Below are positions 10,229 to 37,076 of a stretch of DNA of 39,037 nucleotides, piece after piece. The position numbers were made by a program, and so were the translations under genes. The stretch is from IMG/VR virus record IMGVR_UViG_2529293063_000017; one strand, written 5' to 3'. The notes beneath the pieces were generated by a model, which made no database searches, had not been told where the DNA came from, and worked only from the letters and a program-made list of their open reading frames with translations. Source of the DNA: a virus. Its lineage: Duplodnaviria > Heunggongvirae > Uroviricota > Caudoviricetes. Position 1 is the first letter of the stretch. Each line of letters begins with the position of its first letter.

Positions 10229-10267
10229 ACTTCCCCCTGTGCTACTTGTAAATTAAAGAGTCAAACA

Positions 10268-12460: not shown

Positions 12461-14211
12461 CAGAACTCCATAACCGTGAAACGCTCGTTTTCTCCTTCGC
12501 CGCCAATTGGTTCGTTAATGACAGCAAGCATGGTTGCCCACGCAAGGTCGCCGTGGCTGATCCCCCTCGCGCGGTCCGTTTCGTAAGTGATAAAGCCGCC
12601 CGGTGTTTTCACCTTACGCACGGCGTTAAAGGCCGCGACCAGCTCGCGTTCGGCGCGATCGTATTCCCACCGCCCGGCACGCATTATTTGCAGCATTTTC
12701 AGTACCAGCGACCGTTTTGATGACAGCGTGAAGGTGTACGGAATAGCGGCAGGGAAAAACCGTTTCACTATCTGATAAACAGCCTCCCCGTTCCCGCCCG
12801 TCACATCAATGCCGATGTGTTCCACGTTGTAGCGACACGTGAACTCTTCAATGACTCTGGCCTGTTCTTCAAACTCCAGCCCCTGAACGCGTCGCGTCTC
12901 CACCGTTCGAAAACGGCCACCAGGAACAGACGGAGGAACCACCACGGACACAGCGCCGCTGTCGCCGTTGCCACTGCTGCCGTTTGCGTCATACCCAATC
13001 CATACCGGACGATTCCCCATCGGGCGGGGAGCAAAAGGTTTCCAGTCTTTCCAGTCGTCGTATCCGTCAACGCCACAGCCAATCAGGATATTCAGGTTAA
13101 ATGCCGATTCCCCTTCGCGGACAAACTCACACATATAGAGATTGAGGAACTCGTCTTCGGTGTTTTCATCACGAATTTCATCAATATCGGTGTGTTTCCA
13201 GCCGTGATTAACCACATCTTCCAGCGTGACAATTTGCCGCCACGTCCGGTCAGGGCAGATAAGCCCGTTATGCAGCGTTTTCCAGTCCACAGAAAAACGC
13301 TGGCGTTTATGCGAGGCCTTTTTCTCGTTCCAGCGGTCGCCGTTCCAGTAGGCGTATGCCTCGTGCGTTTCGGTGGATGGCGTGGAGAAGTAGGTGCGCC
13401 GCAGTCCGCTGAGGGTTGCCATAGCGCCAGCCACCTTGCGCAGTTCAGCAAAGCGACTGACCCAGAAAAATTCATCAAAATAAAAATTGCCCGTATAGGA
13501 CTGTGCCGACGCAGCAGAAGTGCCGAGAAAATGCAGCTCTGCGCCGTTGGAGAGGATGATTTTATCGCCCCCTTTCAGCTCCACATCAACTTCAGCCGCG
13601 GCCTTCTGAATAATGCTTTTAAACTGGAACGCCTGACGACGCGACGCAGACAAAAAAATCTGGTTACGCTGGTAAGGTTGCGCCACATCGTCACGCAGCG
13701 CCATCAGCAGTGCTTCCTGTGCAAAATACCAGGTCGCCCCAATCTGTCGGGATTTCAGGATCATCCTGTTACGTATCCCGGCTTCCCTGCAAAGGGTCAG
13801 GGAGTCAAACCAGCCCCGCTGATGCCACTCCAGCCTGCTGATGATTTTTTCCCGCAGTGCGGCAATCTGTTCCGGCGTGAAATGATTTTTGAGTTTTTTC
13901 GCCCGGCCTTTCTTTCCTGTGGCCGTCGCATCCGGCTGGCCATCATGCAGTTTTTTAAGCTGCCGGGTCAGCAGGTCTATTTCCTTGAAGTCACCACCTG
14001 TTTTATTCTGTTTTTCAGTGAGCTGGATGAGGCGCGCATCGATGGACTGCGTGACACGCTGCACGGGTGGCGTTTCATCCCACTGGTCGCGTTTTTTCCA
14101 CGCATAAATCGTGTTCGGGTTTATTCCCATCAGACGTGATATTTCTGCGGGCGGATAACCCTGCCAGTAAAGTTGCCGCGCACGCTGGCGCACAAAAGCG
14201 TCCTGAATCAT
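12460..14211 (-). CDS. P: Terminase large (ATPase) subunit, gpP-like
   Basis: 583 aa; N-terminal HTH-like segment then a large ATPase/nuclease body; size and position match P2 P. Confidence 0.85.
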   Translation of the reverse strand: MIQDAFVRQRARQLYWQGYPPAEISRLMGINPNTIYAWKKRDQWDETPPVQRVTQSIDARLIQLTEKQNKTGGDFKEIDLLTRQLKKLHDGQPDATATGKKGRAKKLKNHFTPEQIAALREKIISRLEWHQRGWFDSLTLCREAGIRNRMILKSRQIGATWYFAQEALLMALRDDVAQPYQRNQIFLSASRRQAFQFKSIIQKAAAEVDVELKGGDKIILSNGAELHFLGTSAASAQSYTGNFYFDEFFWVSRFAELRKVAGAMATLSGLRRTYFSTPSTETHEAYAYWNGDRWNEKKASHKRQRFSVDWKTLHNGLICPDRTWRQIVTLEDVVNHGWKHTDIDEIRDENTEDEFLNLYMCEFVREGESAFNLNILIGCGVDGYDDWKDWKPFAPRPMGNRPVWIGYDANGSSGNGDSGAVSVVVPPSVPGGRFRTVETRRVQGLEFEEQARVIEEFTCRYNVEHIGIDVTGGNGEAVYQIVKRFFPAAIPYTFTLSSKRSLVLKMLQIMRAGRWEYDRAERELVAAFNAVRKVKTPGGFITYETDRARGISHGDLAWATMLAVINEPIGGEGENERFTVMEF

Positions 14212-18300: not shown

Positions 18301-18846
18301 ATGAAATCGAAAGACGAAATTTTTGATGCCGTTCTTGGCAAAGAAGGCGGCTACGTCAATCACCCGGATGACAGAGGCGGTCCGACAAAATGGGGCATCA
18401 CTGAAAAGGTGGCACGGGCGCACGGATACCGTGGCGATATGCGTGATTTAACGCGCGGACAGGCACTGGAAATCCTTGAAGCTGATTACTGGTACGGACC
18501 GCGTTTTGATCAGATAGCGAAGCTGTCCCCGGATATTGCCGCAGAACTGTGTGACACCGGAGTAAATATGGGACCGTCTGTGGCAACCAGAATGCTTCAG
18601 CGCTGGCTGAACGCATTCAATCAGGGCGGGAAACTGTATCCCGATATGGACACAGACGGACGCACTGGCCCACGCACGATTAACGCATTACGTGCATATC
18701 TGGAAAAACGCGGTCGGGGCGGCGAGATGGTGATGTTAACAGCACTGAACTGTACACAGGGTGAACGCTATCTGGAGCTGGCGGAAAAACGCGAAGCCAA
18801 CGAGTCGTTTGTCTACGGCTGGATAAAGGAACGCGTGGCAGCATGA
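18301..18846 (+). CDS. Endolysin, GH108-type N-terminal domain with C-terminal peptidoglycan-binding domain
   Basis: 181 aa; ...GGYVNHPDDRGGPTKWGIT... motif characteristic of GH108 muramidases; in lysis-cassette position. Confidence 0.8.
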   Translation: MKSKDEIFDAVLGKEGGYVNHPDDRGGPTKWGITEKVARAHGYRGDMRDLTRGQALEILEADYWYGPRFDQIAKLSPDIAAELCDTGVNMGPSVATRMLQRWLNAFNQGGKLYPDMDTDGRTGPRTINALRAYLEKRGRGGEMVMLTALNCTQGERYLELAEKREANESFVYGWIKERVAA

Positions 18847-22833: not shown

Positions 22834-24999
22834 ATGAGTACCACAACACGAAAATTTAAAACCATTATCACTGATACTGGTGCCAAAAAATTAGCTCAGG
22901 CAGCCGCGCCAGGTGGTAATCCTGTCCGCCTGACTCACATGGCCGTGGGCGACGGTGGCGGCACGTTGCCCACACCAGACAGTAAGCAGACCCGTCTGGT
23001 GCATGAGGTGTGGCGACATACTGTTAATCGCGTCATCCTGGACGCAACACATCAGAACCGCATTATTGCGGAGCTGGTTATTCCTCCTGAAACGGGCGGA
23101 TTCTGGATCCGGGAAATTGGTGTATTTGATGAGCACGGCGATTTAATCGCGGTGGGCAATACTGCCGAAAGTTACAAACCAACCGTTGCCGAAGGGTCCG
23201 GACGTGCACAAACATTTCGCACCATTCTGACCGTATCCAGCACTGCCACCGTGGCGCTTACCGTGGATAACACCATGGTGATGGCCACAGTGGATTACGT
23301 GGATGACAAACTGAAAGAGCATGAACAGTCACGACGTCACCCGGATGCCTCGCTGACCGCAAAAGGCTTTGTTCAACTCAGTAGCGCCACTAACAGCGAT
23401 TCTGAAACGCTGGCTGCAACGCCGAAAGCGGTTAAGGCCGCGTATGACCTGGCTAACGGAAAATATACCGCTCAGGACGCCACGACGGCACGAAAAGGGA
23501 TAGTCCAGCTCAGCAGTGCAACCAACAGCACGTCTGAAACGCTGGCAGCGACACCAAAAGCGGTTAAGGCGGTAATGGATGAAACGAACAAGAAAGCCCC
23601 ATTAAACAGCCCGGCACTGACCGGAACGCCAACAACACCAACTGCACAACAGGGAACGAATAATACCCAAATCGCAAGCACGGCTTTCGTTATGGCCGCG
23701 ATTGCCGCACTTGTAGACTCTTCACCTGACGCACTGAACACGCTGAACGAACTGGCGGCGGCGCTGGGCAACGACCCGAATTTTGCGACCACCATGACTA
23801 ACGCGCTTGCGGGTAAGCAACCGAAAGATGCCACCCTGACGGCGCTGGCCGGGCTTGCTACTGCGGCAGACAGGTTTCCGTATTTTACGGGGAATGATGT
23901 TGCCAGTCTGGCAACCCTGACAGAAGTCGGGCGGGATATTCTTGCGAAATCGACCGTTGCCGCTGTTATCGAATACCTCGGTTTACAGGAAACGGTAAAC
24001 AGGGCTGGTAACGCCGTGCAAAAAAATGGCGATACCTTGTCCGGTGGGCTTACTTTTGAAAATGACTCAATCCTTGCCTGGATTCGAAATACTGACTGGG
24101 CGAAGATTGGATTTAAAAATGATGCTGATGGTGACACTGATTCATACATGTGGTTTGAAACAGGCGACAACGGCAATGAATATTTCAAATGGAGAAGCAA
24201 AAAAAGCACCACAACAAAAGACCTGATGAATCTTAAATGGGATGCTTTGTTTGTCCTTGTTAAAGCCCTTTTCAGCAGTGAAGTAAAAATATCGACAGTC
24301 AATGCACTAAGGATATTTAATTCATCTTTTGGTGCCATTTTTCGCCGTTCTGAAGAATGCCTGCATATCATCCCGACACGAGAGAATGAGGGAGAAAATG
24401 GTGATATAGGGCCACTACGCCCCTTTACGCTTAATCTTAGAACTGGTCGGATAAGCATGGGGCATGGTCTTGATGTTACAGGGGATATATTTGCAAACCG
24501 TTTTGCAATTAACAGTAGTACCGGCATGTGGATTCATATGCGTGACCAGAATGTTATTTTGGGACGCAATGCGGTATCCACCGATGGTGCACAGGCATTA
24601 CTTCGTCAGGACCATGCTGATCGCAAATTTATGATTGGTGGGCTGGGAAATAAGCAATTTGGCATCTACATGATTAATAACTCAAGGACAGCTAATGGCA
24701 CCGATGGTCAGGCGTACATGGATAATAACGGGAACTGGCTTTGCGGCTCGCAAGTTATTCCCGGCAACTATGGCAATTTTGATTCCAGATATGTGAAAGA
24801 TGTTCGACTTGGTTCACAGCAATATTATGGAGTGAACAACTGGCAAACATGGAATTTCCAGTGCCCGTCAGGTCATGTATTGTCTGGTATTAATGTTCAG
24901 GATACAGGGTCCAACTCTGCCGATAATATAGCGGGCGTTTATTACAGACCCGTTCAAAAGTATATAAATGGCACCTGGTATAATATAGCGAGCGTTTAA
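22834..24999 (+). CDS. H: Tail fibre protein, gpH-like; C-terminal part lies inside the invertible segment (currently expressed variant)
   Basis: 721 aa; Ala/Thr-rich repeats; C-terminus ...[12 protein letters not shown]; a gix-like crossover site at 23966-23999 lies in-frame inside the gene. Confidence 0.9.
23966..23999. other. gix/hix-like inversion crossover site (left inverted repeat, about 34 bp)
   Basis: ttatcgaatacctcggtttacaggaaacggtaaa; reverse-complement match to 27030-27063; resembles the Mu gix site as I recall it (TTCCTGTAAACCGAGGTTTTGGATAA). Confidence 0.75.
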
Positions 25000-25000
25000 T

Positions 25001-25528
25001 ATGATGCACTTAAAGAACATAAAAGCGGGTAATGCTAAAACACTGGAACAGTATGAGTTAACAAAGAAGCACGGAGTCATCTGGCTTTACTCTGAGGACG
25101 AAAAAAACTGGTATGAGGAAGTGAAAAACTTTCAGCCAGACACCATAAAGATTGTTTACGATAAAAATCAGATTATAGTCGCTATCACCAGAGATGCTTC
25201 AACGCTTAATCCTGAAGGTTTTAGCGTTGTTGAGGTTCCTGATATTACCTCCAACCGACGTGCTGACGACTCAGGTAAATGGATGTTTAAGGATGGTGCT
25301 GTGGTTAAACGGATTTATACGACAGATGAGCAGCAACAACAGGCAGAATCACAAAAGGCCGCGTTACTTTCCGAAGCAGAAAGCGTTATTCAGCCACTGG
25401 AACGCGCCGTCAGGCTGAATATGGCGACGGATGAGGAACGCGCACGACTGGAGTCATGGGAACGCTACAGTGTTCTGGTCAGCCGTGTGGATACGGCAAA
25501 TCCTGAATGGCCACAAAAGCCTGAATAA
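25001..25528 (+). CDS. G: Tail fibre assembly protein (gpG / Mu U-like)
   Basis: 175 aa; immediately after H; paralogous to the minus-strand ORF 25557-26090. Confidence 0.85.
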
Positions 25529-25534
25529 AAATTA

Positions 25535-25554
25535 AGGCCCGCTATAGGGCCTTG
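25535..25554. terminator. Hairpin between convergent G and G' (bidirectional terminator candidate)
   Basis: aaggccc-gctata-gggcctt, 7-bp stem, at the centre of the invertible segment. Confidence 0.45.
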
Positions 25555-25556
25555 TC

Positions 25557-26090
25557 TCATTCAGGTTGTTCGGGAAACGTTACTGGCAGGCTGGAAGTGT
25601 CTGTAGATTCGACTTTCTGCGCAAAGAGCATCCACTCTGTTAATTTTTGTTTATTCTCGTCGGAAATGATGCCCAGCCGTAGCTGTGAGTCCCATAGCTG
25701 GGTTTTATCCCTGACGAGCTGTAGCAGGCTTTGCTTTTCATTTTCCGCCTGCTGCCTCTGCTCTTCCTCGGTATAAGTTCGCTTTACCACTACGCCATCT
25801 TTGAACATCCATTTACCCGAAATGTCAGCACGGCGATTTGCTGTAATATCAGGTAATTCAACGACGCTTGCGCCTTCCGGATTAATTGCTGAAACATCCT
25901 TTTCAATACAAATAATAACGCCGTTATGGCCATAGACCATTTTCAAAGTGTCTGGCTGGAAATTCTTTTGTTCCTCATACCAGTTTTTTCCATCATCTGA
26001 ATAAAGCCATTTGATGTTAAATTGCTTTGTTAGCTGGTATTGCTCTTTTGTTTTAGGGTTGCCAGCAGTAATGTTTTTTAAGTGCATCAT
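25557..26090 (-). CDS. Alternative tail fibre assembly protein (G'/U'-like)
   Basis: 177 aa; MMHLKNITAGNPKT... paralogous to G ([14 protein letters not shown]...). Confidence 0.85.
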   Translation of the reverse strand: MMHLKNITAGNPKTKEQYQLTKQFNIKWLYSDDGKNWYEEQKNFQPDTLKMVYGHNGVIICIEKDVSAINPEGASVVELPDITANRRADISGKWMFKDGVVVKRTYTEEEQRQQAENEKQSLLQLVRDKTQLWDSQLRLGIISDENKQKLTEWMLFAQKVESTDTSSLPVTFPEQPE

Positions 26091-26092
26091 CG

Positions 26093-27037
26093 TTAAATAC
26101 TCCCCGCGTTATACCACGTCCCATTAATGCAATACTGAATTGGCCTTGCCTGAGTTGTATCAATTAATGCATCACGGTTTCCGTTGACTGAACCCGTAAC
26201 GACATAACCTGACCTGTCAGACCAGCCGGGGCCATTCCATGTCTGAACAGATGACAGACCGCCAAGGCGAATACCTGTAATAAACCTTGAGTTACATTCT
26301 GCCTGCGTGTATGCACCAACATCTCCCGCAGAGGGTTTGCGGGTCGTGGTGTAAAACTCTGACCAGTCAACCTCAAATCCATAACCATCACGCGCTGAAC
26401 GATAAAAAATACCGCCGTTCCTGTAATTCACGCGGAACTGTACAGCAGGGCAGCTCCCCGTATTCATATTGAAGTGGAGGATTAATGTCGATGCGCCACC
26501 AATGTTTGCGTTATAGACCCCGCTATTCCAGTTCCAGCCAACAGCTTTATCATTTCCGACAGTGCTTCCTGTTTGCCCTAAAGCAAATGCAGGTTGTTGA
26601 TTTTTCGTGTTGTAGTCTCGTCGCCAGCCAGGAGCATAAGCATCACCATGATTAATATAAGTGAATTGAGCGTTAGTAATTCCGCCACCGCTGGACGTGC
26701 TCGGCGTGGTAACGCGTATGGTCATTGCGCCGCGAGTGCCAATAACTTCCACCACAGCACCTGCAAGACAAATATTTCCGCAACCTGTATCTGTAATGAC
26801 CTTATTATTTGCATAAGCCCATGAGCCTTTGCACATCCAGTAAGGATGGTTAAATGCTCCCTGACTCTCCAGCCACGAAATAAATTGCGCGGTTGTCCAG
26901 ACCTGACTATCGCCACCAATATCCAGCCATGCGCTATATGCGCGGCAGGCCCCAATATTTTTGGTGAAGGTATCTTTTCCCGGAATATCTGCGCCGTTCT
27001 GGTTTTTCTGTAATGCGCCAGAAGCCTGATTTACCGT
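26093..27037 (-). CDS. Alternative tail-fibre C-terminal variable segment (H'-variable), start-less; fuses to H constant part after inversion
   Basis: Reading frame is open on the minus strand from the gix-like site down to the stop at 26093 and in phase with H across the shared crossover sequence; ends ...INGTWYNAGSI, parallel to the H C-terminus. Confidence 0.75.
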   Translation of the reverse strand, partial: TVNQASGALQKNQNGADIPGKDTFTKNIGACRAYSAWLDIGGDSQVWTTAQFISWLESQGAFNHPYWMCKGSWAYANNKVITDTGCGNICLAGAVVEVIGTRGAMTIRVTTPSTSSGGGITNAQFTYINHGDAYAPGWRRDYNTKNQQPAFALGQTGSTVGNDKAVGWNWNSGVYNANIGGASTLILHFNMNTGSCPAVQFRVNYRNGGIFYRSARDGYGFEVDWSEFYTTTRKPSAGDVGAYTQAECNSRFITGIRLGGLSSVQTWNGPGWSDRSGYVVTGSVNGNRDALIDTTQARPIQYCINGTWYNAGSI

Positions 27038-27063
27038 TTCCTGTAAACCGAGGTTTTAGATAA
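27030..27063. other. gix/hix-like inversion crossover site (right inverted repeat)
   Basis: ttcctgtaaaccgaggttttagataa at 27038-27063, 25/26 to the Mu gix sequence as I recall it; inverted copy of 23966-23999. Confidence 0.8.
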
Positions 27064-27117
27064 TGGCCGTTTCCGGCCTGCATGGCATGATTTGCGCTTT
27101 TGGACGGGAGATTCAGC

Positions 27118-27705
27118 GTGCTGATTGGCTATGTAAGGGTATCAACAAATGACCAGAATACAGACCTGCAACGAAACGCTCTTGTTTGTGCAGGATGTGA
27201 ACAAATATTTGAAGATAAATTAAGCGGGACAAAGACAGACCGACCGGGATTAAAACGCGCTTTAAAGCGCCTTCAAAAAGGTGACACGCTGGTTGTCTGG
27301 AAACTGGATCGCCTCGGGCGAAGCATGAAACATCTGATTTCTCTCGTCGGGGAACTACGGGAGCGAGGAATTAATTTTCGCAGTCTGACCGACAGCATAG
27401 ATACATCTTCTCCAATGGGGCGTTTTTTCTTCCACGTGATGGGTGCCCTGGCTGAAATGGAACGTGAATTAATTGTTGAACGTACACTGGCCGGACTGGC
27501 GGCAGCACGCGCACGGGGGCGCACAGGCGGACGTCGACCGAAGCTGACAAAAGAACAGCATGAGCAAATAGCAAGGCTGATCAAAAACGGGCACGACAGA
27601 AAACAACTGGCAATAATTTACGGCATTGGTATATCGACGATTTATCGTTACCACCCCGCAGGAGAATCAATCGGAACAATAGAGAAGAGTCAGGAAACAA
27701 AATAA
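27118..27705 (+). CDS. Serine DNA invertase, Gin/Pin/Cin/Hin family
   Basis: MLIGYVRVSTNDQNTDLQRNALVCAGCEQIFEDKLSG...LVVWKLDRLGRSMKHLISLVGELRERGINFRSLTDSIDTSSPMGRFFFHVMGALAEMERELI... is close to Gin-family invertases; GTG start at 27118 (the ORF track extends to a TTG at 27100). Confidence 0.9.
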   Translation: MLIGYVRVSTNDQNTDLQRNALVCAGCEQIFEDKLSGTKTDRPGLKRALKRLQKGDTLVVWKLDRLGRSMKHLISLVGELRERGINFRSLTDSIDTSSPMGRFFFHVMGALAEMERELIVERTLAGLAAARARGRTGGRRPKLTKEQHEQIARLIKNGHDRKQLAIIYGIGISTIYRYHPAGESIGTIEKSQETK

Positions 27706-27737
27706 CCGCTAATCTGACCATTAGCGGTTTTTGTGTT
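27706..27737 (+). terminator. Rho-independent terminator after the invertase gene
   Basis: ccgctaat-ctgacc-attagcgg hairpin followed by tttttgtg. Confidence 0.5.
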
Positions 27738-27740: not shown

Positions 27741-28235
27741 TCAGAACAGCCCTTTAACTGAACTGGCCGCGCTGTTAAGAGATGATGTCACCTTATCTTT
27801 GAAGCCGGACAGCATATCGCTGAATGATGAGGATTGCAGGCGCTCCCGCAAATCCTCATCACAGCGTTCAAGGGTCAGTGAAAATTCTATCTTTTTCGCC
27901 TTACCGTAGCGATCAAACTCGGAACGGGTCGTATTAGTTTCAGTCAACACATACATGCCGTAAATCTGCCCGACACCATCAATCAGAGGCCAGGGGCGTC
28001 CTGTATATGCCTGCGTGGTCAGCAACGAAAGCGACACTTCGCCACCTGTAATTTCAGGATAAAGCACGCCAGAAAGCACAATGCGATCATCACCTGCACC
28101 GATATACTGCCAGCTTGCTGAGCGGTTAACGCGTTCATTTTTCACATGCCGCCAGCTTTTGTTTTGCTGTAACTGCTGATGCGGCAATGTGCGCAGCTCA
28201 AAAACAAACATGCCGTAGATCATCATCATGACCAT
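27741..28235 (-). CDS. U: Tail protein, gpU-like
   Basis: ...FVFELRTLPHQQLQQNKSWRH...WPLIDGVGQIYGMYVLTE... resembles P2 gpU. Confidence 0.85.
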   Translation of the reverse strand: MVMMMIYGMFVFELRTLPHQQLQQNKSWRHVKNERVNRSASWQYIGAGDDRIVLSGVLYPEITGGEVSLSLLTTQAYTGRPWPLIDGVGQIYGMYVLTETNTTRSEFDRYGKAKKIEFSLTLERCDEDLRERLQSSSFSDMLSGFKDKVTSSLNSAASSVKGLF

Positions 28236-28241
28236 GACTCC

Positions 28242-31085
28242 TCAATCTTTATCGTAAAAACTGCCACGTCCGGCACGGGCGCGCCGTTCCATCTCTGCCC
28301 TGACCATTTCACCGACCAGTTTCGCCAGTTCGCGGGGATTCTGCGTAACAACGTTATGCAGATGAACATGAATTTCACCACCAAATCCGGAGGCAACAGG
28401 CTCCCGGTTACGGGAAGTTACAGGAACTGATGCCACTGGAGATCGTATGGCCTCCGCCACCGGGCGGGAGCTGGCCGCAACAACAGGGACCAGCGCCGGA
28501 GGCAGCGGAGCCGGAACCACGGGTGTGATATTAATTGCGGGGGCAGGCTTACTGACCTGCGCAATCTTCCGCTCCTGCCACTCCCCACGAACAGCAAGTG
28601 CTCGGGGCAGGTTTTTAAAGACAATATCGCCGGGGCCAATACGTTTTTTCGTCTCCTCAACCAGCTTACCTGTGTTATCAGCAATTTTGCTGAGTCTGCG
28701 CAGCGTACCGGTATTGCTGTCTGTGAGCGGTTTATTGTCTTTGGGGTTATCACCTCCGGTGCCATTGCCATTTTCCACAGGCTTCGGCGGATTGATTTTC
28801 GCCAGGTCCCCCTGAAGCAAGGCAACCTTGTCCTGAAGAATGGCCGCACGCTGTGCGTCTTCGATTTTCTTTCTCGCCCTTTCCGCTTCATCCGGAAGAA
28901 CACCGAGTTTTTCAAGTATCCACGCCAGCGTATCCAGCAACATTTTTGCAGGCGTCAGAACAAGCTGTAACGCGCCACCAAGAACGTTACCGAATATCTC
29001 GCCAGCACTGGTACATTTATCCAGCGTTTCCTTGCTGGACTCCATCGGTGACAGCAGCGATTTAAACCAGTTAAACACCTGGCTGATCCCGCTTCCGATT
29101 GCGTCAAAAACAGGGCCAAACCGTTCAAAGGTTTCACGCAACGGGTTCAGCCTTTCCATAATCCCGCTGAACACCCCGGCAAAAAATGCCCTGATGGGAT
29201 CCCAGTATTTCCAGATAAGAACGGCAGCTCCGGCAAGCGCAGCCACGATAAGACCAACCGGACTGAACAGCGCCCCGATAGCTCCTCCCAGCAAAGAAAC
29301 GGAACCCGTCACCATTCCCCACAGCGCAGGCAACACCCTGACGACATTCATTGACCGGGTAAGAATGTCAAAACCAAGACGCAGGGTGGCCAGCTTCCCG
29401 TAAAGCACCCCAATAACCAGCGACAACGAGCCAATCGTTGCAGTCATTGCCAGCAACGCACCGCCTGCTATCAGTAGCTGGCGCGTCAGTACCGGATGGG
29501 CCTGCGCCAGCGAGGTGATTGTTTCAAGCACCCGCGTGAGCCACTGCGTGACAGAACGCAGCGGACCGTCAACCAGATCACTGATGCGAATACGAAGACC
29601 TTCCCATGCGCTGTCGAGATTTTTCAGGTCCCCATCAAGATTATCGGCCATTACTTTTGCAACGCGATCGGCCTCTCCCCTTGCCCCCTGCAATTCTCTG
29701 GTCAGTTTTTGCAGCTCTCCTGAACCAGCCGCCGCAACAAGCGTCTGCAAACCAACGAACGCCTCTTCTCCGGCGATGTCCTTGAAGAAGGAGACCTGGT
29801 CCACCTGTCCGTATTTTTGTGTCGCCTTATAGAGATCAAGCAGCACATCCTCCATCGGGCGCATTTTGCCTCTGGCGTCAGCAACTGACACCCCCAGCTC
29901 TTTCAGTGCATCAGCCGCAGCTTTTGGCGGTGATGCAAGGCGGGACAGACTTGCGCGCATGGCCGTGCCAGCATCGCTTCCGCGAAGACCATTATTGGCA
30001 AGCATCCCGGCCATGGCCGCCGCTTCTTCAAGACTGATACCAAGTTTTGCGGCAACCGGACCGGTATACTTCATGGTTTCGCCCAGCGCGCGTAAATCAG
30101 TATTGGTCCGGGTAAATGCTGCTGTCAGCGTATCGCCCCCCCGGTCCATTTGATCGGCTGTCAGGTTGAACTGTGTGAGGATATTGGAGCCTATATCAGC
30201 CGTCTCGCCGAGTTCGACGCCCCCTGCCAGCGCCATATTAAGAACACCGGGCAATGCGGCCTGAATGGCCTGCGGAGTAAAACCAGCCATTGCCAGAAAG
30301 CTCTGCCCACTGGCGGCATCACTCGCAGTAAACTGTGTTTCAGAGCCAAGTTTTAACGCCTGCTCACGCAGCGCCTTAAACTGCGGGCTGTTTTTGTCGA
30401 TTCGCGTCAGTGCCTGAACGCGGGACATCTCTTTGCCGAACCCGATCGCAGGCTGCAAAAAACGCCCGGCAGCATAGCCGCCCGCTGCTGCCGCACCAAT
30501 TGCCAGCGCACCACCTGTTTTCAGTTTTCCCGCGGTTTCCTGCGCGCGCGAATACCGCTCACGCGCCTGCGTTACACGCGCAAGCGCCTGCCGTTCGCGT
30601 TCAAGCTGGTTGTTGTATTGTTCGGTGCGTCTGATGGCCTGCTGAATGGTGTTATCGCTGCCTGTCAGGGAAATGCCGTGGCGTTTCAGTTCTCCGCCAA
30701 GCTCCCGCATTTTCTGAATTTCCCGTGTGCGCGATTCATTCAGGCGTTCAAGCCGGGTGCTTAACTGCTGCATTAGCTTTTGTTGTTTTTCGCTGAGCAC
30801 TGTACCCGTGCGTTGTAACTGATTAAGGGCGTTAAGCTGGCGTCGTGCTTTCACGATACCCGCATCCGCTTTACTGACAGCGTCGCGGGCGCGCTCAAAT
30901 GATCGCGCCTGACGCTCGAGATTTTTGATCGCCCCCTGCGTTCGCTGGATGGAGTCACCAAACTGCCCCATCAGGCGGCGGGCGTTTTCGGCAGGCCGGG
31001 TCAGCCTGTCAACGGCGCTGAAAGCGACCCGGATATCAAGAGTCTTCATTGTCTGCATTCCCGCTGCGAAGTGCCGCCCGCTCAC
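28242..31085 (-). CDS. T: Tail tape measure protein, gpT-like
   Basis: 947 aa; coiled-coil-rich N-terminal part, hydrophobic central segments, Ala/Gly-rich; position after E/E'. Confidence 0.9.
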   Translation of the reverse strand: MSGRHFAAGMQTMKTLDIRVAFSAVDRLTRPAENARRLMGQFGDSIQRTQGAIKNLERQARSFERARDAVSKADAGIVKARRQLNALNQLQRTGTVLSEKQQKLMQQLSTRLERLNESRTREIQKMRELGGELKRHGISLTGSDNTIQQAIRRTEQYNNQLERERQALARVTQARERYSRAQETAGKLKTGGALAIGAAAAGGYAAGRFLQPAIGFGKEMSRVQALTRIDKNSPQFKALREQALKLGSETQFTASDAASGQSFLAMAGFTPQAIQAALPGVLNMALAGGVELGETADIGSNILTQFNLTADQMDRGGDTLTAAFTRTNTDLRALGETMKYTGPVAAKLGISLEEAAAMAGMLANNGLRGSDAGTAMRASLSRLASPPKAAADALKELGVSVADARGKMRPMEDVLLDLYKATQKYGQVDQVSFFKDIAGEEAFVGLQTLVAAAGSGELQKLTRELQGARGEADRVAKVMADNLDGDLKNLDSAWEGLRIRISDLVDGPLRSVTQWLTRVLETITSLAQAHPVLTRQLLIAGGALLAMTATIGSLSLVIGVLYGKLATLRLGFDILTRSMNVVRVLPALWGMVTGSVSLLGGAIGALFSPVGLIVAALAGAAVLIWKYWDPIRAFFAGVFSGIMERLNPLRETFERFGPVFDAIGSGISQVFNWFKSLLSPMESSKETLDKCTSAGEIFGNVLGGALQLVLTPAKMLLDTLAWILEKLGVLPDEAERARKKIEDAQRAAILQDKVALLQGDLAKINPPKPVENGNGTGGDNPKDNKPLTDSNTGTLRRLSKIADNTGKLVEETKKRIGPGDIVFKNLPRALAVRGEWQERKIAQVSKPAPAINITPVVPAPLPPALVPVVAASSRPVAEAIRSPVASVPVTSRNREPVASGFGGEIHVHLHNVVTQNPRELAKLVGEMVRAEMERRARAGRGSFYDKD

Positions 31086-31565
31086 GCCAGCTAACCACTT
31101 CGCCGGGCGTCATCATGAAGATTTCGGCGGGCGACCAGTTAAAAATGGCGGCAATATCCGCCACAAAGTCTTCTATATGCTCAAAGCACACAACCGTGAT
31201 CAGGCTTCCGTCGCCTGTTCGTTCTTCCCGCCAGAGTCCGCACCGCTCAAAAAATTTACGGCAACCACACATAACTGAATAAAGTCACGGGATGCCATTT
31301 TTTTGATCGTCACTTCATCCAGTCGCGGTGATGTCACGCGTGACAGCAGCGTAAACATGGATTCCGCTTTCAGATTCAGCACATCAGACAGCGACAAATC
31401 TCGCAGAGATCCAGCCTGCTCAATAGCCCCGGTGATCTCCACATACGTGATTTTTTCGCCGCCTCGCTCAATTGGTTGGGTAAGTTTTCCCCCACGCTCA
31501 CTGGTTTCTTTCACAGTGTCAGTAACTACCGTGTTTTCGGTATCGATGTTTTTCGTCTCTTTCAT
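31036..31565 (-). CDS. Tail assembly chaperone frameshift product, gpE+E'-like (-1 programmed frameshift)
   Basis: The -1 frame opened at ttttttg (minus strand, 31256..31250) continues as FFERCGLWREERTGDGSLITVV... to the stop at 31036, overlapping the T start, as in P2 E/E'. Confidence 0.75.
31200..31565 (-). CDS. E: Tail assembly chaperone, gpE-like
   Basis: 121 aa; ends just downstream of a T6G slippery heptamer; position between FII and T. Confidence 0.85.
   Translation of the reverse strand: MKETKNIDTENTVVTDTVKETSERGGKLTQPIERGGEKITYVEITGAIEQAGSLRDLSLSDVLNLKAESMFTLLSRVTSPRLDEVTIKKMASRDFIQLCVVAVNFLSGADSGGKNEQATEA
31250..31256 (-). other. Slippery heptamer TTTTTTG for the E/E' -1 frameshift
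   Basis: Plus-strand caaaaaa at 31250-31256 is ttttttg on the coding (minus) strand; located 16 codons before the E stop. Confidence 0.7.
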
Positions 31566-31619
31566 CAGGAAACTCCTTTCAGTCAGAGGCGACGCACTGC
31601 GCCGCCTGCATATTACTTA

Positions 31620-32132
31620 TCAGCCAAGCCCGAGCGCGGAACGGATGCGATCGGGCACAATGTCCTTGCCGTCCTTCCGGTAAATGAAGTTCAGCAGGTC
31701 AATCTCCCACAACGGGCGATCGTTAACACTCAGCTTGTAGTAGGTGTTTTTAATGGCGTAAGTGTGTGATGTGGCTTCGCCCTGTTTGGCTTCCCCCATA
31801 TCAATTTCCGTCACACGTCCGCGCATTTCGACTTCATACAGGTCGCTTTCTGCATCGGTGTAGTATTCACCCGCAAAACGCAGCAGCGTGCCGTCAATCG
31901 TGCCGCCATACTTAAGGAACAGCTCACGAACTGCGCCCCCCATGACAAAGCTCGCATCAAGCGCGGAGTCGTCCAGACCGAGATCAATACTTACCGCACC
32001 CATCATGCCGCCCCCCCGGTAGCTGTCGGTTTTGCGCGTCAGTTTGGGCAGAGTGACGGACGTCACCTTACCCACTTCGTTTTCACCATCCACAAACAGC
32101 GTAAAAAAGCGAAGATGTTTTGGCACAGCCAT
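31620..32132 (-). CDS. FII: Tail tube protein, gpFII-like
   Basis: ...VTLPKLTRKTDSYRGGGMMGAVSIDLGLDD... matches P2 FII (...VTLPKLTRKLENYRGAGMNGAAPIDLGLDD...). Confidence 0.9.
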   Translation of the reverse strand: MAVPKHLRFFTLFVDGENEVGKVTSVTLPKLTRKTDSYRGGGMMGAVSIDLGLDDSALDASFVMGGAVRELFLKYGGTIDGTLLRFAGEYYTDAESDLYEVEMRGRVTEIDMGEAKQGEATSHTYAIKNTYYKLSVNDRPLWEIDLLNFIYRKDGKDIVPDRIRSALGLG

Positions 32133-33316
32133 CAGGCACCTCCCAGCACCGCAAATGCGGGTTCAAAGTATTCATCAGTAAACGTCTGGTAAAGCTCCAT
32201 GTCTTCCAGTGGCGGAACGGGCGTATATTTGTAGCGAATACGCACACGCCCCTGACGTAAATCCGTGGTGCTGTTATCCACCACGTCATACCAGCACTCC
32301 GCGCCAATCAGTTTCCCGGCAGTAACCAGTGAATCCAGTTTTGCCCTGATGGCACTGATAACATCCTTCACGTTCGCAGGCGTCAGTGGACTGTCGATGG
32401 TTTCAAACTGCGCTTCCGCAATTGAATCAGCCAGCACCTGTGCGGTTCGGGTATACACCTCAAAGATGTAGGCGTTCGTTTCCGGTGTGCGGTTGCCCCA
32501 GAAGCGGAACCCGTTGCGACGAATAATGGTCGTGATTTCTTTGTTGTTGAGGCTGTTGGCATCGCTGTCTTCGGCCTGCAACGACCAGAACACATGCCTC
32601 GACATCCCCAGCACATTTTTAACCGGAACGTTGGACAGTGATTTGTGCCACCCCTGCTCATGGTCAATGTACGCACGAAGGCCGCACGCATAGGCAGGCG
32701 CGGGGAACGTTTCGTTTTTGCCACTTTTCGGGTTGTAGGCGATGAAGTCCGGCCATAAGAGCATCATCTCACGTTCGTTGAATTTCTGGCGGTAGGTAAT
32801 CGCCTCAGCCATCGTGTTACAGCCGTGACATGAGGCATACACAAACGCGCGCAGTTTACCTGCAATCACGCACAGGGATTTTGTTACCGCCTCCGTGTCC
32901 AGCTCCGGCGCGGCCAGAATACGCGGACGGTATCCGATGCTTTCATCCTGCTCTGCAACAAGCAGCGCATACATCCCCGTATAGCTGCCGTCAGATTCAG
33001 AACCACCGATAACCAGTTGATCCTGCGTTTTTCCGTCTTCTTCTTTGTGTTCAGCCACGCGAACGACGATCACCTTTGTGCTCACCTGGTCTGCGATGGC
33101 CTTAAGCGCACGATAAAGCGTCCCCGTTGTTCCGCATTTTCCCAGCACGTCATTGACGCGGGTCAGCAGTGTGGGCTTGTTCAGCGGGAACAGCTCCGCG
33201 TCCGCATCATCCGCCGTTGCCACGATACCGATAACACTGGAATCAACATCATTAATCGCTGTTACCAGGTCGGTACTTTCCGTAACACGGGCACCATGAA
33301 AACGAGTTTCACTCAT
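32132..33316 (-). CDS. FI: Contractile tail sheath protein, gpFI-like
   Basis: 394 aa; size and position upstream of FII. Confidence 0.9.
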   Translation of the reverse strand: MSETRFHGARVTESTDLVTAINDVDSSVIGIVATADDADAELFPLNKPTLLTRVNDVLGKCGTTGTLYRALKAIADQVSTKVIVVRVAEHKEEDGKTQDQLVIGGSESDGSYTGMYALLVAEQDESIGYRPRILAAPELDTEAVTKSLCVIAGKLRAFVYASCHGCNTMAEAITYRQKFNEREMMLLWPDFIAYNPKSGKNETFPAPAYACGLRAYIDHEQGWHKSLSNVPVKNVLGMSRHVFWSLQAEDSDANSLNNKEITTIIRRNGFRFWGNRTPETNAYIFEVYTRTAQVLADSIAEAQFETIDSPLTPANVKDVISAIRAKLDSLVTAGKLIGAECWYDVVDNSTTDLRQGRVRIRYKYTPVPPLEDMELYQTFTDEYFEPAFAVLGGA

Positions 33317-33482
33317 AGCTTCAGCCCCTTGTATCCGTTAAATGATTCGGCAACAATCATCACCCACCACGCGCGTAATCTCACCCCTGCGACGTTCTCC
33401 CGCCACGGCGACAACAAAAAGCAGTAACCCCCTCCGCACGCACATGCGACCATGCCGCACAGGGAGGGAACAGATGACCGAC

Positions 33483-34583
33483 ACCACCATGCAATTGATC
33501 AGTCAGGGCACAGACCCCGTGAAAATGCCGGATTTTGATATTCTCGCGGAGGGTAAAACGCTGTCAGGCGTGGCAGAGCGCCTGATGAGCCTGTCACTGA
33601 CCGACAACCGGGGATTTGAAGCAGACCAGCTCACCATCACGCTGGATGATGCAGATGGTCAGTTGCATCTACCGCCACGGGGCGCGCGCCTGACGGTTCT
33701 CATTGGCTGGAAAGGGGAACCGCTGACAGAAAAAGGCACTTACATTGTTGATGAAATCGCTCACGAAGGACCGCCGGACAGGCTGACTGTTTCAGCCAGA
33801 AGCGCAGATTTTCGGGATGAATTTAACGTTAAACGAGAGGTGTCCTGGCATGATGTGACCGTTGAGCGTGTGGTATCCGCCATCGCTCATCGGTATGGTC
33901 TGAAACCGCAAATCAGCGAAATGCTGATGGATATCGAAATCGACCACGCCGACCAGACCGAAGAAAGCGACATGTCCTTCCTTACGCGCATGGCGGAAAT
34001 GCTGGGCGCAATCACCACGGTAAAAAGCGGCAATCTGTTATTCATCATGCCAGGTGGTGGCGTGAACGCACAGGGCCAGCCGTTGCCCTCGTTCGCCATT
34101 ACACGCAGCAGCGGCGATCGCCATCAGTTCCGTATTGCTGATCGCGAGGCGTATACGGGGGTACGCGCCTACTGGCTTGATCTTAATTACGGGAAAAAGA
34201 AAAAAGTCAGCGTGAAACGCCGTAAACCGCCAAAACCCAAAAAGGAGAAAAGCAGCAGCCGTGAAGGTGATTATATGGAAGGCGCGGAAGGCAATGTGTT
34301 TGTGTTACGCAAGACTTATCAGAACGAGCAGGCAGCAAGACGCGCAGCGGCGGCAAAGTGGCAGCAGCTACAACGCGGAGCCGCATCATTTTCCATCACG
34401 CTGGCACGTGGACGCGCAGAACTCTACCCCGAAATGCATGGCACGGTAACAGGATTTAAAAGCGAGATTGATAATCAGGACTGGATTATTGCAAAAGTCG
34501 AGCACACCGTTGATAACAGCGGCTTTACCACGCAGCTTGAGCTTGAAGCAAAAATCCCGGAATGGATAGCGGAAACAGAATGA
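33483..34583 (+). CDS. D: Tail protein gpD-like (late gene D)
   Basis: ...SWHDVTVERVVSAIAHRYGLKP...HADQTEESDMSFLTRMAEMLGAITTVKSGNLLF...GGVNAQGQPLP...FVLRKTY...RGAASFSITLARGR... matches P2 gpD; ATG at 33483 after RBS gggaggg. Confidence 0.85.
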   Translation, partial: TTMQLISQGTDPVKMPDFDILAEGKTLSGVAERLMSLSLTDNRGFEADQLTITLDDADGQLHLPPRGARLTVLIGWKGEPLTEKGTYIVDEIAHEGPPDRLTVSARSADFRDEFNVKREVSWHDVTVERVVSAIAHRYGLKPQISEMLMDIEIDHADQTEESDMSFLTRMAEMLGAITTVKSGNLLFIMPGGGVNAQGQPLPSFAITRSSGDRHQFRIADREAYTGVRAYWLDLNYGKKKKVSVKRRKPPKPKKEKSSSREGDYMEGAEGNVFVLRKTYQNEQAARRAAAAKWQQLQRGAASFSITLARGRAELYPEMHGTVTGFKSEIDNQDWIIAKVEHTVDNSGFTTQLELEAKIPEWIAETE

Positions 34584-34731: not shown

Positions 34732-35790
34732 TTAAAAATTATTTATTATGTGTTCAGCTAAATGATCATACTCACCAGCCATCTCATTCATTAGTTCTAC
34801 CTGATTAACTGCCCATTGCCCCCGCCCACGAAGAGCATTCGTTGGCCTAACTCGAGACAAATAGCGAATAGGTATATTTTGAATAATACTATCAGGAGCC
34901 ATAACGTTGAGGTCCTCAATCTTTCCAACTGGTTCATAATCAGTAAAATCAGGAACCGCGTTGTAAGATGAAATCTGTGAAAGCTGAGGAAGCATTTTTT
35001 CCTCTATCGCTTTTCTTATTGAACGGTGATGAACTGCATCTGCACCAACCTCTTGTTTAACATCATTTTGCTTTCTCGTATCAAAACCATTGAATATCCA
35101 ACCGCCAAATTTAGGCATCCCTTTCTGAGATATAATATTATCTCGTGGGTTACCTGATAGATATCTTTCCTTGCCCTGCTCCCAATCACGTATAAATGAT
35201 GGCAACATCTCACCAATCAGCCCTACACAATATGAAGAGAATAAATCAGGTGTGCATGGAACTAAAAAATAGTCCGAGCAGTACAATGACGATCTAACAA
35301 GCGTATTGAATGAGGGAGGTAAATCTATTAGGACATAATCATAAATAACATCATTTTTCTCTGATGCTTTTTTTGTTATCAAATCTGGCAAAATAAAACG
35401 ATATAACCCTGCGCCACTTATAACATCAGTGCCGACATTTAAAATATCTGAAAATGTATTAAGCCAAAAGTCTCCAGGAACAATATGCAAAACGCCTGCA
35501 TCTGTCTTAGTCTTAGGTTCTGTTGTATAAACTTCACCTATAGTATTTTGTTGTATGTAAGGCAATGCAAATGCTTTAACCGTTTTTCCAAAAGGGAAAT
35601 CATCTGAAGGTTCCAATAACTCTGAAAATTCCTCATCACCAATACATGCAATTGAGAGATTACACTGGGGATCAAAGTCTATTAATAAAACACTTTTTCC
35701 TTTATCTGCTAGCGATACTGCAAGATTCCAAATTATAGTTGTTTTACCAACACCACCTTTGTTATTAAAAATCGATATAGTTTTTGTCAT
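34732..35790 (-). CDS. ParA/MinD-family Walker-type ATPase with about 100-aa C-terminal extension; solo accessory gene
   Basis: 352 aa; N-terminal deviant Walker A (MTKTISIFNNKGGVGKTT); AT-rich; no ParB-like partner gene nearby. Confidence 0.8.
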   Translation of the reverse strand: MTKTISIFNNKGGVGKTTIIWNLAVSLADKGKSVLLIDFDPQCNLSIACIGDEEFSELLEPSDDFPFGKTVKAFALPYIQQNTIGEVYTTEPKTKTDAGVLHIVPGDFWLNTFSDILNVGTDVISGAGLYRFILPDLITKKASEKNDVIYDYVLIDLPPSFNTLVRSSLYCSDYFLVPCTPDLFSSYCVGLIGEMLPSFIRDWEQGKERYLSGNPRDNIISQKGMPKFGGWIFNGFDTRKQNDVKQEVGADAVHHRSIRKAIEEKMLPQLSQISSYNAVPDFTDYEPVGKIEDLNVMAPDSIIQNIPIRYLSRVRPTNALRGRGQWAVNQVELMNEMAGEYDHLAEHIINNF

Positions 35791-36643: not shown

Positions 36644-36878
36644 GGAAACCGCGACGGGGGAGTAATCCCCCGTCAATCGGTTGCCAGGGTAAGGTCGATA
36701 AGGCACCCTATATCACAGACATGAACAACAAGCCCGCAGCGTAAAAACTGCGGGTTTTCTTTTTGGTATCCCCATCCATAAGCAATAGGCATAACAGATC
36801 GATGCAATAAATCCGATCGATAAAAACGATCGATTTGTTATCATATCGGCAGCAGTAACCACACAAGAGGTGCCGCAA

Positions 36879-37076
36879 ATGACGCAAAATGTACGATGCA
36901 AAAATTGCAACAAACTACTTGCCCGCGCCTCATTTCACTACATTGAAATAAAATGTCCGCGCTGCAAAACACTTAACCAGATAACGAGAGCCATTGAGCA
37001 CCCCACACACATGAGGAGTTATGACCGTGGGGATCGCAATCCAGCACCAACCAGCACATACACCGGAACACACTAA
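36879..37076 (+). CDS. com: Com-like zinc-finger protein (Mu Com family translational activator)
   Basis: MTQNVRCKNCNKLLARASFHYIEIKCPRCKTLNQITRAIEHPT... resembles Mu Com (MKSIRCKNCNKLLFKADSFDHIEIRCPRCKRHIIMLNACEHPT...); its 3' end overlaps the start of the methyltransferase gene. Confidence 0.8.
   Translation: MTQNVRCKNCNKLLARASFHYIEIKCPRCKTLNQITRAIEHPTHMRSYDRGDRNPAPTSTYTGTH

What the first reader, a model, noticed from the sequence alone, without database searches (positions are those of the whole stretch)
23966..27705. Mu G-segment-like invertible tail-fibre switch with Gin-family invertase in a P2-type tail gene cluster
About 34-bp inverted repeats (23966-23999 and 27030-27063) closely matching the gix crossover sequence flank a 3.1-kb segment carrying two alternative fibre C-termini and two assembly-protein genes in opposed orientation. 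Both frames are in phase with the constant part of H across the crossover site, so inversion would swap the receptor-binding tip and its assembly protein. The invertase protein is near-identical in motif content to Gin/Pin. The mechanism is known, but the element makes host range phase-variable here and provides a recombinase that could also act elsewhere in the prophage.
Basis: partly seen in the sequence, partly recalled or inferred. Interest (0 to 1): 0.5.

Follow-up and report, generated by a model that had tools for sequence, protein, structure and literature searches.

The report
Mu-type invertible tail-fibre switch, P88-like prophage
This is a textbook phage Mu "G-segment" DNA flip-switch, with its Gin-type invertase, sitting in a P2-family (phage P88-like) E. 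coli prophage, where it lets the phage alternate between two receptor-binding tail-fibre tips; it is real and intact but already well known.

Summary
Two 34-bp inverted repeats (23966-23999 and 27030-27063, 32/34 identical) contain 26-bp gix cores with the same central TC. They differ from phage Mu gix by 2 bases and 1 base. They flank a 3,098-bp segment that carries Sv+U on the + strand and U'+S'v on the - strand. Inverting the segment in silico at the core keeps the fibre gene in frame: 721 aa becomes 700 aa. The adjacent invertase (27118-27705) is 86% identical to Mu Gin, and 118 of its first 120 residues match. Its first 183 nt differ from Mu gin at 3 positions; Mu's Fis-dependent enhancer lies within the invertase gene. 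The window is a prophage collinear with Escherichia phage P88 (Peduoviridae, Xuanwuvirus), which carries the same module, annotated. Both orientations occur in nature. The flipped junction is contiguous in 126 complete E. coli genomes and the as-is junction in 356. One prophage has the same segment, 99.3% identical, inverted exactly between the repeats. No other gix-like site exists in the window, so action "elsewhere in the prophage" has no support. Verdict: a genuine, probably active host-range switch that is already known. Low interest.

The parts
22834..23978 (+). Constant N-terminal part of the tail-fibre gene (P2 gpH-type; tail-collar N-terminal domain plus fibre repeats). It is shared by both fibre isoforms.
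   Evidence: The ORF is 22834-24999. Pfam finds Phage_tail_fib and Phage_fiber_2. 314 of 382 aligned positions match P2 H.
23966..23999 (+). Left inverted repeat. It contains the 26-bp gix-like crossover core at 23966-23991 (TTATCGAATACC-TC-GGTTTACAGGAA), which lies inside the fibre reading frame.
   Evidence: The central TC is at 23978-23979.
23979..24999 (+). Sv, the variable fibre C-terminus expressed in the present orientation. It is a mosaic. It is 69% identical to Mu S over the variable part. Its last 129 aa are 97.7% identical to a Shigella phage SfMu fibre.
   Evidence: Pfam finds Gp34_trimer.
25001..25528 (+). U, the tail-fibre assembly chaperone paired with Sv.
   Evidence: Pfam Caudo_TAP, E = 1.5e-37. 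It is 90% identical to Mu U.
25557..26090 (-). U', the tail-fibre assembly chaperone paired with S'v. It is silent in the present orientation.
   Evidence: Pfam Caudo_TAP, E = 1.7e-35. It is 96% identical to Mu U'.
26093..27050 (-). S'v, the alternative fibre C-terminus. It has no start codon of its own at its 5' end and is open up to the crossover site. It is silent in the present orientation.
   Evidence: 306 of 311 residues match Mu S'. It is in frame after inversion in silico.
27030..27063 (-). Right inverted repeat. It contains the 26-bp gix-like core at 27038-27063 (TTATCTAAAACC-TC-GGTTTACAGGAA on the - strand).
27118..27705 (+). Gin-family serine DNA invertase, 195 aa, starting at GTG. 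It lies outside the invertible segment. Its 5' part (about 27118-27300) corresponds to the region of Mu gin that carries the Fis-dependent enhancer (sis).
   Evidence: Pfam finds Resolvase plus HTH_7. It is 86% identical to Mu Gin and matches PDB 4m6f and 3uj3. The first 183 nt differ from Mu at 3 positions.
27704..27729 (.). Hairpin with T-runs on both strands, likely a bidirectional terminator between the convergent invertase and gpU genes.
   Evidence: and (I9).

Best explanation
The region is a complete phage Mu G-segment-type host-range switch carried by a P88-like (Peduoviridae, Xuanwuvirus) prophage of E. coli. The tail-fibre gene is split by a 26-bp gix site into a constant P2-H-type N-terminal part, outside the segment, and a variable C-terminal part inside it. 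The 3.1-kb segment carries two variable parts, each followed by its own assembly chaperone, in opposite orientations. A Gin-family serine invertase is encoded just outside the right repeat. By inference from Gin and Hin, invertase dimers bind the two gix sites and synapse with the Fis-bound enhancer located in the 5' part of the invertase gene. They cleave at the central TC through Ser9, rotate by 180 degrees and religate, which flips the segment. In the present orientation the late operon makes H(const)-Sv plus U, with an SfMu-like tip. After inversion it makes H(const)-S'v plus U', a tip 98% identical to Mu S'. A lysogen population would therefore release particles with two different receptor specificities. 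What is shown: the anatomy, both reading frames, homology to Mu, and the existence of both orientations in related prophages. What is inferred: that inversion happens in this genome, that it depends on Fis, and which receptors are used.
For: The sites are specific: only two gix matches occur in 39 kb, with 0 expected by chance. The cores differ from Mu gix only at positions 6 and 9 of the outer half-site, and the central TC is identical. Inversion in silico keeps the frame, giving a 700-aa fibre followed by U'. The segment is 91-95% identical in DNA to the G segments of Mu and D108 and to the C segments of P1 and P7. Protein identities to Mu are S'v 98%, U' 96%, U 90% and Sv 69%. The invertase is 86% identical to Gin and retains R7, S9, D64, R65 and R68, plus wild-type M114. 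It also has the invertase-specific Fis-contact residues Q150, R153 and L154 and the basic helix-B residues K46, R47 and K50 (sequence read against PMC3798978). The first 183 nt of the gene differ from Mu gin at 3 positions. Mu's enhancer lies within the invertase gene (Kahmann et al. 1985, as cited in PMC3798978). Both orientations exist in nature: the flipped junction is contiguous in 126 complete E. coli genomes at up to 99.7% identity, and the as-is junction in 356. In E. coli strain 98234 the same segment (99.3% identical over 3,098 bp) is inverted exactly between the repeats while both flanks stay collinear. The two distinguishable outer half-sites stay with their flanks.
Against: There is no direct evidence of inversion in the genome this window comes from, because it is a single assembled orientation with no reads. 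No sigma-70-like promoter was found by the simple scan between the right repeat and the invertase start, so expression of the invertase is assumed from homology with Mu. The invertase DNA-binding domain (residues 121-195) has diverged from Gin, and the left outer half-site has two changes from Mu gix, so efficiency could differ. Related prophages can be locked: in strain WS1933D the invertase is annotated as frameshifted.
Confidence: 0.9

Rival explanations
1. The switch is structurally intact but effectively locked or fossil in this genome. The invertase may be too weakly expressed, or the prophage may be defective, so the second fibre cassette is silent cargo and host range is fixed.
For: Locked relatives exist: in strain WS1933D the invertase is annotated as frameshifted while the segment sits in the flipped state. 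No promoter-like site was found upstream of the invertase by the consensus scan. Only one orientation is present in the window.
Against: The invertase ORF is intact with all catalytic and Fis-contact residues. Both sites and the enhancer region are conserved. The silent S'v and U' show no decay, with 98% and 96% identity to Mu and open frames. Both orientations are frequent among close relatives. The whole prophage is collinear with the inducible phage P88 (PMC6456863).
Confidence: 0.07
2. The orientation differences among genomes arise from RecA-dependent homologous recombination between the short inverted repeats, not from the invertase.
For: The comparative data place the crossover only within the 25-bp stretch that is identical in both repeats (23975-23999). 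On their own they cannot separate site-specific from homologous exchange.
Against: Twenty-five bp of perfect identity is at or below the usual minimum for efficient RecA recombination (established knowledge). The repeats are bona fide gix sites next to an intact Gin homologue and its enhancer. The same architecture is experimentally invertase-dependent in Mu (PMC3575834).
Confidence: 0.02
3. This is the first reader's extension: the invertase also rearranges other parts of this prophage through secondary sites. An example would be the FI-to-U tail block, which is inverted relative to P2.
For: The FI-FII-E-T-U block (27741-33316) is on the opposite strand to its position in P2, and it begins right next to the invertase gene.
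Against: No third gix-like site exists. The best other 26-mers score 14-15, the same as the maxima in shuffled sequence (14-16), against 21-22 for the two real sites. The pattern search with 3 mismatches finds only two sites. No inverted repeat brackets the block. The block has the same orientation in P88 and in every relative examined.
Confidence: 0.02

Closest known systems
Phage Mu G segment with Gin (also D108)
   Same: The architecture is the same: Sc|gix|Sv-U / U'-S'v|gix|gin. The segment is 91-93% identical in DNA over about 3.5 kb. The inner gix half-site and central TC are identical. S'v, U' and U are 98%, 96% and 90% identical. The invertase is 86% identical, and the 5' part of its gene is about 98% identical in DNA.
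   Different: The constant part of the fibre is P2 gpH-type (about 380 aa), not Mu Sc (about 170 aa). The tip of Sv is SfMu-like, not Mu S-like. The invertase DNA-binding domain is diverged, with a Hin-like recognition helix. The host element is a P2-family integrative prophage, not a transposable phage. Downstream of the invertase lies a convergent gpU gene rather than com-mom.
Escherichia phage P88 and other Xuanwuvirus (Peduoviridae) phages and prophages, e.g. Citrobacter phage phiSM
   Same: The window is collinear with P88 over most of its length at 90-97% identity. P88 has the same module at the same place, annotated as two tail-fibre proteins, two assembly proteins and a DNA invertase. 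Both gix cores are identical. The invertase C-terminal part is 97% identical in DNA.
   Different: The tip of Sv differs: 66% identity to P88 over the last 129 aa. Cargo segments and the endolysin also differ. I found no paper in the searched library that describes the P88 switch experimentally.
Phage P2 gene H
   Same: The constant part is homologous. The protein sequence across the crossover site ([12 protein letters not shown]...) is identical, and a gix-like sequence lies at the same place in H: TTATCGAATATCTCGGTTTACAGGAA at P2 13857-13882.
   Different: P2 has only this one site. It has no second fibre cassette and no invertase, and fun(Z) lies downstream of G. It therefore cannot switch.
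P1/P7 C segment with Cin, and the Salmonella H segment with Hin. The e14 P segment with Pin and the Shigella boydii B segment with pinB also belong here, but the window was not compared with either; pinB appears only in the P1 record's notes.
   Same: They belong to the same class of Fis/enhancer-dependent serine invertases with 26-bp sites. The P1 and P7 C segments are 88-91% identical in DNA to the window's segment.
   Different: The carrier replicons differ (plasmid prophage, chromosome). In P1 the invertase sits on the other side. Hin flips a promoter rather than a coding C-terminus (PMC3798978).

Membership tests
Fis/enhancer-dependent serine DNA invertases (Gin/Hin/Cin/Pin) | A small serine recombinase with an N-terminal resolvase catalytic domain, including the nucleophile serine, and a C-terminal HTH domain | tested here: met
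   Pfam finds Resolvase (1.3e-50) and HTH_7 (1.6e-13). S9 and R7, D64, R65, R68 are present. The protein is 86% identical to Gin and matches the PDB Gin entries at E = 4e-101.
Fis/enhancer-dependent serine DNA invertases (Gin/Hin/Cin/Pin) | Two 26-bp crossover sites in inverted orientation with identical central dinucleotides | tested here: met
   The cores lie at 23966-23991 (+) and 27038-27063 (-), and both read NNN..ACC-TC-GGTTTACAGGAA.
Fis/enhancer-dependent serine DNA invertases (Gin/Hin/Cin/Pin) | A recombinational enhancer with Fis sites in cis (inside the invertase gene in Mu) | tested here: met
   This is met by homology only. The first 183 nt of the invertase gene differ from Mu gin at 3 positions. 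The location of the Mu enhancer within gin comes from Kahmann et al. 1985, as cited in PMC3798978. The exact enhancer coordinates and Fis binding were not tested.
Fis/enhancer-dependent serine DNA invertases (Gin/Hin/Cin/Pin) | Invertase-specific residues that contact Fis and the enhancer (Hin Q151, R154, L155; basic residues at 47, 48, 51) | tested here: met
   The window protein has Q150, R153, L154 and K46, R47, K50; its numbering is one lower than Hin's. The criterion comes from PMC3798978.
Fis/enhancer-dependent serine DNA invertases (Gin/Hin/Cin/Pin) | Inversion actually occurs and depends on the invertase and Fis | not testable with these tools
   Indirect support only. Both orientations occur among related prophages, with breakpoints inside the repeats. 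No reads or experiments exist for this genome.
Mu G-segment-type tail-fibre switch | The crossover site lies inside the fibre ORF, with the constant N-terminal part outside and two variable C-terminal parts inside, both in frame | tested here: met
   Inversion in silico gives a 721-aa fibre as is and a 700-aa fibre when flipped, both open.
Mu G-segment-type tail-fibre switch | Each variable part is followed by its own assembly chaperone, and the two cassettes are in opposed orientation | tested here: met
   U and U' are both Caudo_TAP. They are 90% and 96% identical to Mu U and U'.
Mu G-segment-type tail-fibre switch | The two orientations give different receptor specificity | not testable with these tools
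   The tips are unrelated in sequence: Sv is SfMu-like and S'v is Mu S'-like. Receptor use is inferred from the Mu literature, not tested.
P2-family (Peduoviridae) tail gene cluster | Homologues of gpV, W, J, I, H and gpU, T, E, FII, FI, D | tested here: met
   The window is collinear with P88, which is classified in Peduoviridae. Pfam finds Phage_P2_GpU and Phage_GPD. H is 65% identical to P2 H overall. The FI-U block is on the opposite strand compared with P2.

The most novel reading that the evidence does not exclude
The invertase is a natural hybrid. Its catalytic domain and enhancer are nearly identical to Gin, and its DNA-binding domain is diverged, with a Hin-like recognition helix. It is paired with gix sites that carry lineage-specific outer half-sites (TTATCGAATACC and TTATCTAAAACC, against TTATCCAAAACC in Mu). 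If this pairing shifts site preference, P88-like prophages could flip their own fibre switch partly independently of co-resident Pin, Gin or Cin systems. Among the complete E. coli genomes with any match to this region, the median is two matching places per genome. Nothing tested here supports altered specificity. The classical invertases are known to cross-complement, which argues against it.
Probability: 0.08. Interest if true: 0.35.

Novelty: already known. Interest (0 to 1): 0.12.

Why it matters
The finding matters little beyond annotation. It shows that this prophage can probably release virions with two receptor specificities, one with an SfMu-like tip and one with a Mu S'-like tip. That is relevant when predicting host range or horizontal transfer from such lysogens. 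It also warns that assemblies of this region represent one of two states. The comparison illustrates how the whole G-gin module moves as a cassette between Mu-like, P1-like and P2-like phages, with the exchange boundary at the gix site that P2 H itself still carries.

Tried and rejected
(1) I looked for secondary gix-like sites anywhere in the 39-kb window, using a pattern search with 3 mismatches and a half-site scoring scan against shuffles. Nothing rose above background.

(2) I looked for inverted repeats bracketing the FI-U block, which is inverted relative to P2, as a possible trace of invertase action. None was found.

(3) I tried to find isogenic prophages at the same chromosomal site (next to flk) to compare orientation. 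Four genomes whose right-end DNA is 99.8% identical to the window were examined. All carry different fibre modules or deletions between gpI and gpU, so they were uninformative about orientation. Prophages elsewhere (L004, L005) served instead.

(4) A promoter scan upstream of the invertase found no consensus sigma-70 site. This is uninformative rather than negative.

(5) Literature searches for a description of the P88 switch found only a passing mention of a predicted invertase in the related phage phiSM.

(6) A PADLOC scan of the cargo genes gave only weak, sub-threshold matches.
Full report
**What is in the sequence**

The ORF map of 20-30 kb shows a 721-aa tail-fibre gene at 22834-24999 (+) and a 175-aa gene at 25001-25528 (+). 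On the opposite strand are a 177-aa gene (25557-26090) and an ORF ending at 26093 that stays open upstream to about 27050. A recombinase ORF ending at 27705 (+) follows.

The repeat finder reports an inverted repeat with arms at 23966-24026 and 27003-27063, 61 nt at 79%. Aligning the two arms shows a core of 34 nt with 32 matches:
- Left arm: TTATCGAATACCTCGGTTTACAGGAAACGGTAAA
- Right arm, reverse complement: TTATCTAAAACCTCGGTTTACAGGAAACGGTAAA

A search with the gix pattern TTATCNAAAACCTCGGTTTACAGGAA, allowing 3 mismatches, finds exactly these two sites in the 39-kb window, against none in 100 dinucleotide-preserving shuffles. The only adjustment concerns the invertase start. It most likely begins at the GTG at 27118 (MLIGYVRVSTNDQ..., 195 aa), as in Mu and P88, and not at the TTG at 27100.

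**Frame test**

I inverted 23979-27050 in silico, that is, between the central TC dinucleotides of the two 26-bp cores. The fibre gene stays open and encodes a 700-aa protein. Its sequence switches after ...[12 protein letters not shown] from [12 protein letters not shown]... to QASGALQKNQNG... It ends in ...INGTWYNAGSI, and the second chaperone gene starts 2 nt after its stop.

**Identity of the parts**

Pfam assignments:
- Constant part of the fibre: Phage_tail_fib and Phage_fiber_2.
- Both small genes: Caudo_TAP (tail-fibre assembly protein).
- Recombinase: Resolvase plus HTH_7.
- The gene just downstream on the minus strand: Phage_P2_GpU.

Identities to phage Mu (locus L002):
- S'v: 306 of 311 residues.
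- U': 96%.
- U: 90%.
- Sv: 69%, in a mosaic pattern.
- Invertase: 86% to Gin over 181 residues, with 118 of the first 120 identical.

The invertase keeps R7, S9, D64, R65 and R68, and the wild-type M114, whose M114V change makes Gin independent of Fis (PMC3575834). It also has the residues that PMC3798978 describes as uniquely conserved in Fis/enhancer-dependent invertases. These are Hin Q151, R154 and L155 and the basic helix-B positions 47, 48 and 51. In the window protein they are Q150, R153, L154 and K46, R47, K50.

The first 183 nt of the gene differ from Mu gin at only 3 positions. Mu's Fis-dependent enhancer lies within the invertase gene (Kahmann et al. 1985, cited in PMC3798978). I did not obtain its exact coordinates, so the cis-acting enhancer is judged conserved by homology only. 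I could not test Fis binding.

DNA identity to Mu gin collapses after about nt 360-390 of the gene. Accordingly, the DNA-binding domain is diverged. Its recognition helix GIGISTIYRY resembles Hin (GIGVSTLYRY) more than Gin. This domain is shared with P88-like phages.

A hairpin at 27704-27729, with T-runs on both strands, separates the convergent invertase and gpU genes.

**Where the window comes from**

The 5-kb region matches Escherichia phage P88 (Peduoviridae, Xuanwuvirus) at 94.5% over 97% of its length. It also matches the G and C segments of D108, Mu, SfMu, P7 and P1 at 88-95%.

The whole window is collinear with P88 from about 2.3 to 36.8 kb, with a few replaced segments. P88 is annotated with the same arrangement: fibre, assembly protein, reversed assembly protein, reversed fibre fragment, DNA invertase, then gpU, T, E', E, FII and FI on the minus strand. 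Sixty-two complete E. coli genomes carry at least 80% of the 5-kb region in one piece, at up to 98.4% identity, and 2,896 genomes have some match. The right end of the window reaches the host gene flk.

The constant part of the fibre matches P2 H at 314 of 382 aligned positions. P2 H is identical in protein sequence across the crossover site. P2 DNA holds a single gix-like sequence at that spot, TTATCGAATATCTCGGTTTACAGGAA. It has no partner and no invertase.

Homology of the window to Mu starts at 23959, 7 bp before the left repeat, and runs to about 27497 inside the invertase gene. The Mu-type cassette therefore joins the P2-type fibre at the crossover site.

**Does it flip?**

I built the junction expected after inversion: 300 nt of the constant part plus 300 nt of S'v. 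I searched the complete E. coli genomes with it. It is present as one contiguous piece in 126 genomes, at up to 99.7% identity. The junction as found in the window is present in 356 genomes.

Two flipped examples were fetched. In strain 98234 (L004), the window's 23966-27063 aligns at 99.3% identity to the locus in reverse orientation, while both flanks are collinear. In every locus examined, flipped or not, the outer half-site TTATCGAATACC stays with the fibre constant part and TTATCTAAAACC stays with the invertase side. This confines the exchange to the 25 bp that are identical in both repeats and that include the TC core.

This is what Gin-type site-specific recombination predicts. It does not formally exclude homologous exchange, and it says nothing directly about the genome sampled here. 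One relative (WS1933D, L003) has a frameshifted invertase and is presumably locked.

**Mechanism**

The evidence supports a complete Gin-type switch. By homology with Gin and Hin (PMC3575834, PMC3798978), invertase dimers on the two gix sites assemble with the Fis-bound enhancer into an invertasome. They cut at the central dinucleotide through Ser9, rotate and religate.

In the present state the late tail operon yields H(const)-Sv and U. The Sv tip (last 129 aa) is 97.7% identical to a fibre of Shigella phage SfMu and only 66-69% identical to Mu, P88 or P1 S. The flipped state yields H(const)-S'v and U', essentially the Mu G(-) fibre.

The receptor consequences are inferred from the Mu literature. 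From my own knowledge, Mu G(+) and G(-) particles adsorb to different LPS cores and so to different enterobacterial hosts.

**What is not supported**

A half-site scoring scan gives 21-22 for the two real sites. The next best 26-mers score 14-15, indistinguishable from the maxima of shuffled sequence, which are 14-16. The FI-U block next to the invertase is inverted relative to P2. However, it has no flanking inverted repeat or gix-like site, and it has the same orientation in P88 and in all relatives examined.

**Comparison and novelty**

The element meets every sequence-testable criterion of the Gin/Hin/Cin/Pin invertase systems and of the Mu G-segment fibre switch. It differs from Mu in four ways: the replicon that carries it, the P2-type constant part of the fibre, an SfMu-like Sv tip, and a diverged invertase DNA-binding domain.

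The same module is already present and annotated in phage P88 and is widespread in E. coli prophages. I therefore rate it as already known, with low interest (0.12). The most novel reading still open is that the hybrid invertase and its variant outer half-sites give some specificity shift. Nothing here supports it, and the known cross-complementation among these invertases argues against it.

Noticed in passing
L006 (phage P2, NC_001895) 13857-13882; corresponds to window 23966-23991: P2 gene H carries a single gix-like sequence (TTATCGAATATCTCGGTTTACAGGAA) at the position where the window has its left crossover site. It has no partner site and no invertase. The Mu-type cassette of the window joins the P2-type fibre exactly there, since homology to Mu starts at 23959.
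   Followed up: partly
window 27741-33316 (- strand) versus 33342-34583 (+): The FI-FII-E-E'-T-U tail block is on the opposite strand to V-W-J-I-H and to gpD, whereas in P2 all of these are co-directional. P88 and all relatives examined have the same arrangement. No inverted repeat or gix-like site marks the ends of the block.
   Followed up: partly
L007, L008, L009, L010 (E. coli AST81, 2003-3014, NIID080884, F2_407_2_2), between gpI and gpU: These are P88-like prophages whose right-end DNA next to flk is 99.8% identical to the window, yet they carry different modules between gpI and gpU. One has a shorter invertible cassette with another recombinase. Two have a single fibre plus assembly protein plus a serine O-acetyltransferase and no invertase. 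One has an IS26-associated deletion. This position, which holds fun(Z) in P2, is a swap hotspot.
   Followed up: partly
L003 (E. coli WS1933D) 9436-10022: The segment is in the flipped orientation, and the adjacent invertase is annotated as frameshifted. This is a naturally locked version of the switch.
   Followed up: no
window 27478-27705 (invertase residues 121-195): The invertase is a mosaic. The catalytic domain is 118/120 identical to Mu Gin, but the DNA-binding domain is diverged, with a Hin-like recognition helix (GIGISTIYRY). DNA identity to Mu gin drops after about nt 360-390 of the gene. The diverged part is shared with P88-like phages.
   Followed up: partly
window 9386-10765 (- strand): Two cargo genes replace the corresponding P88 segment between the partition genes and the portal gene, which is the position of tin/old in P2. 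One is a 280-aa protein with no Pfam match. The other is a 165-aa DUF4760 protein. They may be a defence or lysogenic-conversion cargo.
   Followed up: partly
window 34732-35790 (- strand): A 352-aa ParA-like P-loop ATPase (AAA_31/CbiA) is inserted between gpD and ogr relative to P88. It has only weak PADLOC matches (PDC-M28B).
   Followed up: partly
window about 36800-37812: A DNA methyltransferase (N6_N4_Mtase, 37021-37812) lies at the right end of the prophage, next to the host gene flk. RefSeq annotation of 99.8%-identical DNA lists a Com-family regulator in the same matched region. This recalls the Mu com-mom arrangement, but with a methylase.
   Followed up: no
window 18301-18846: The endolysin is a GH108 plus PG_binding_3 type. 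P88 and the relatives examined have an M15 peptidase here, so the lysis gene has been swapped.
   Followed up: no
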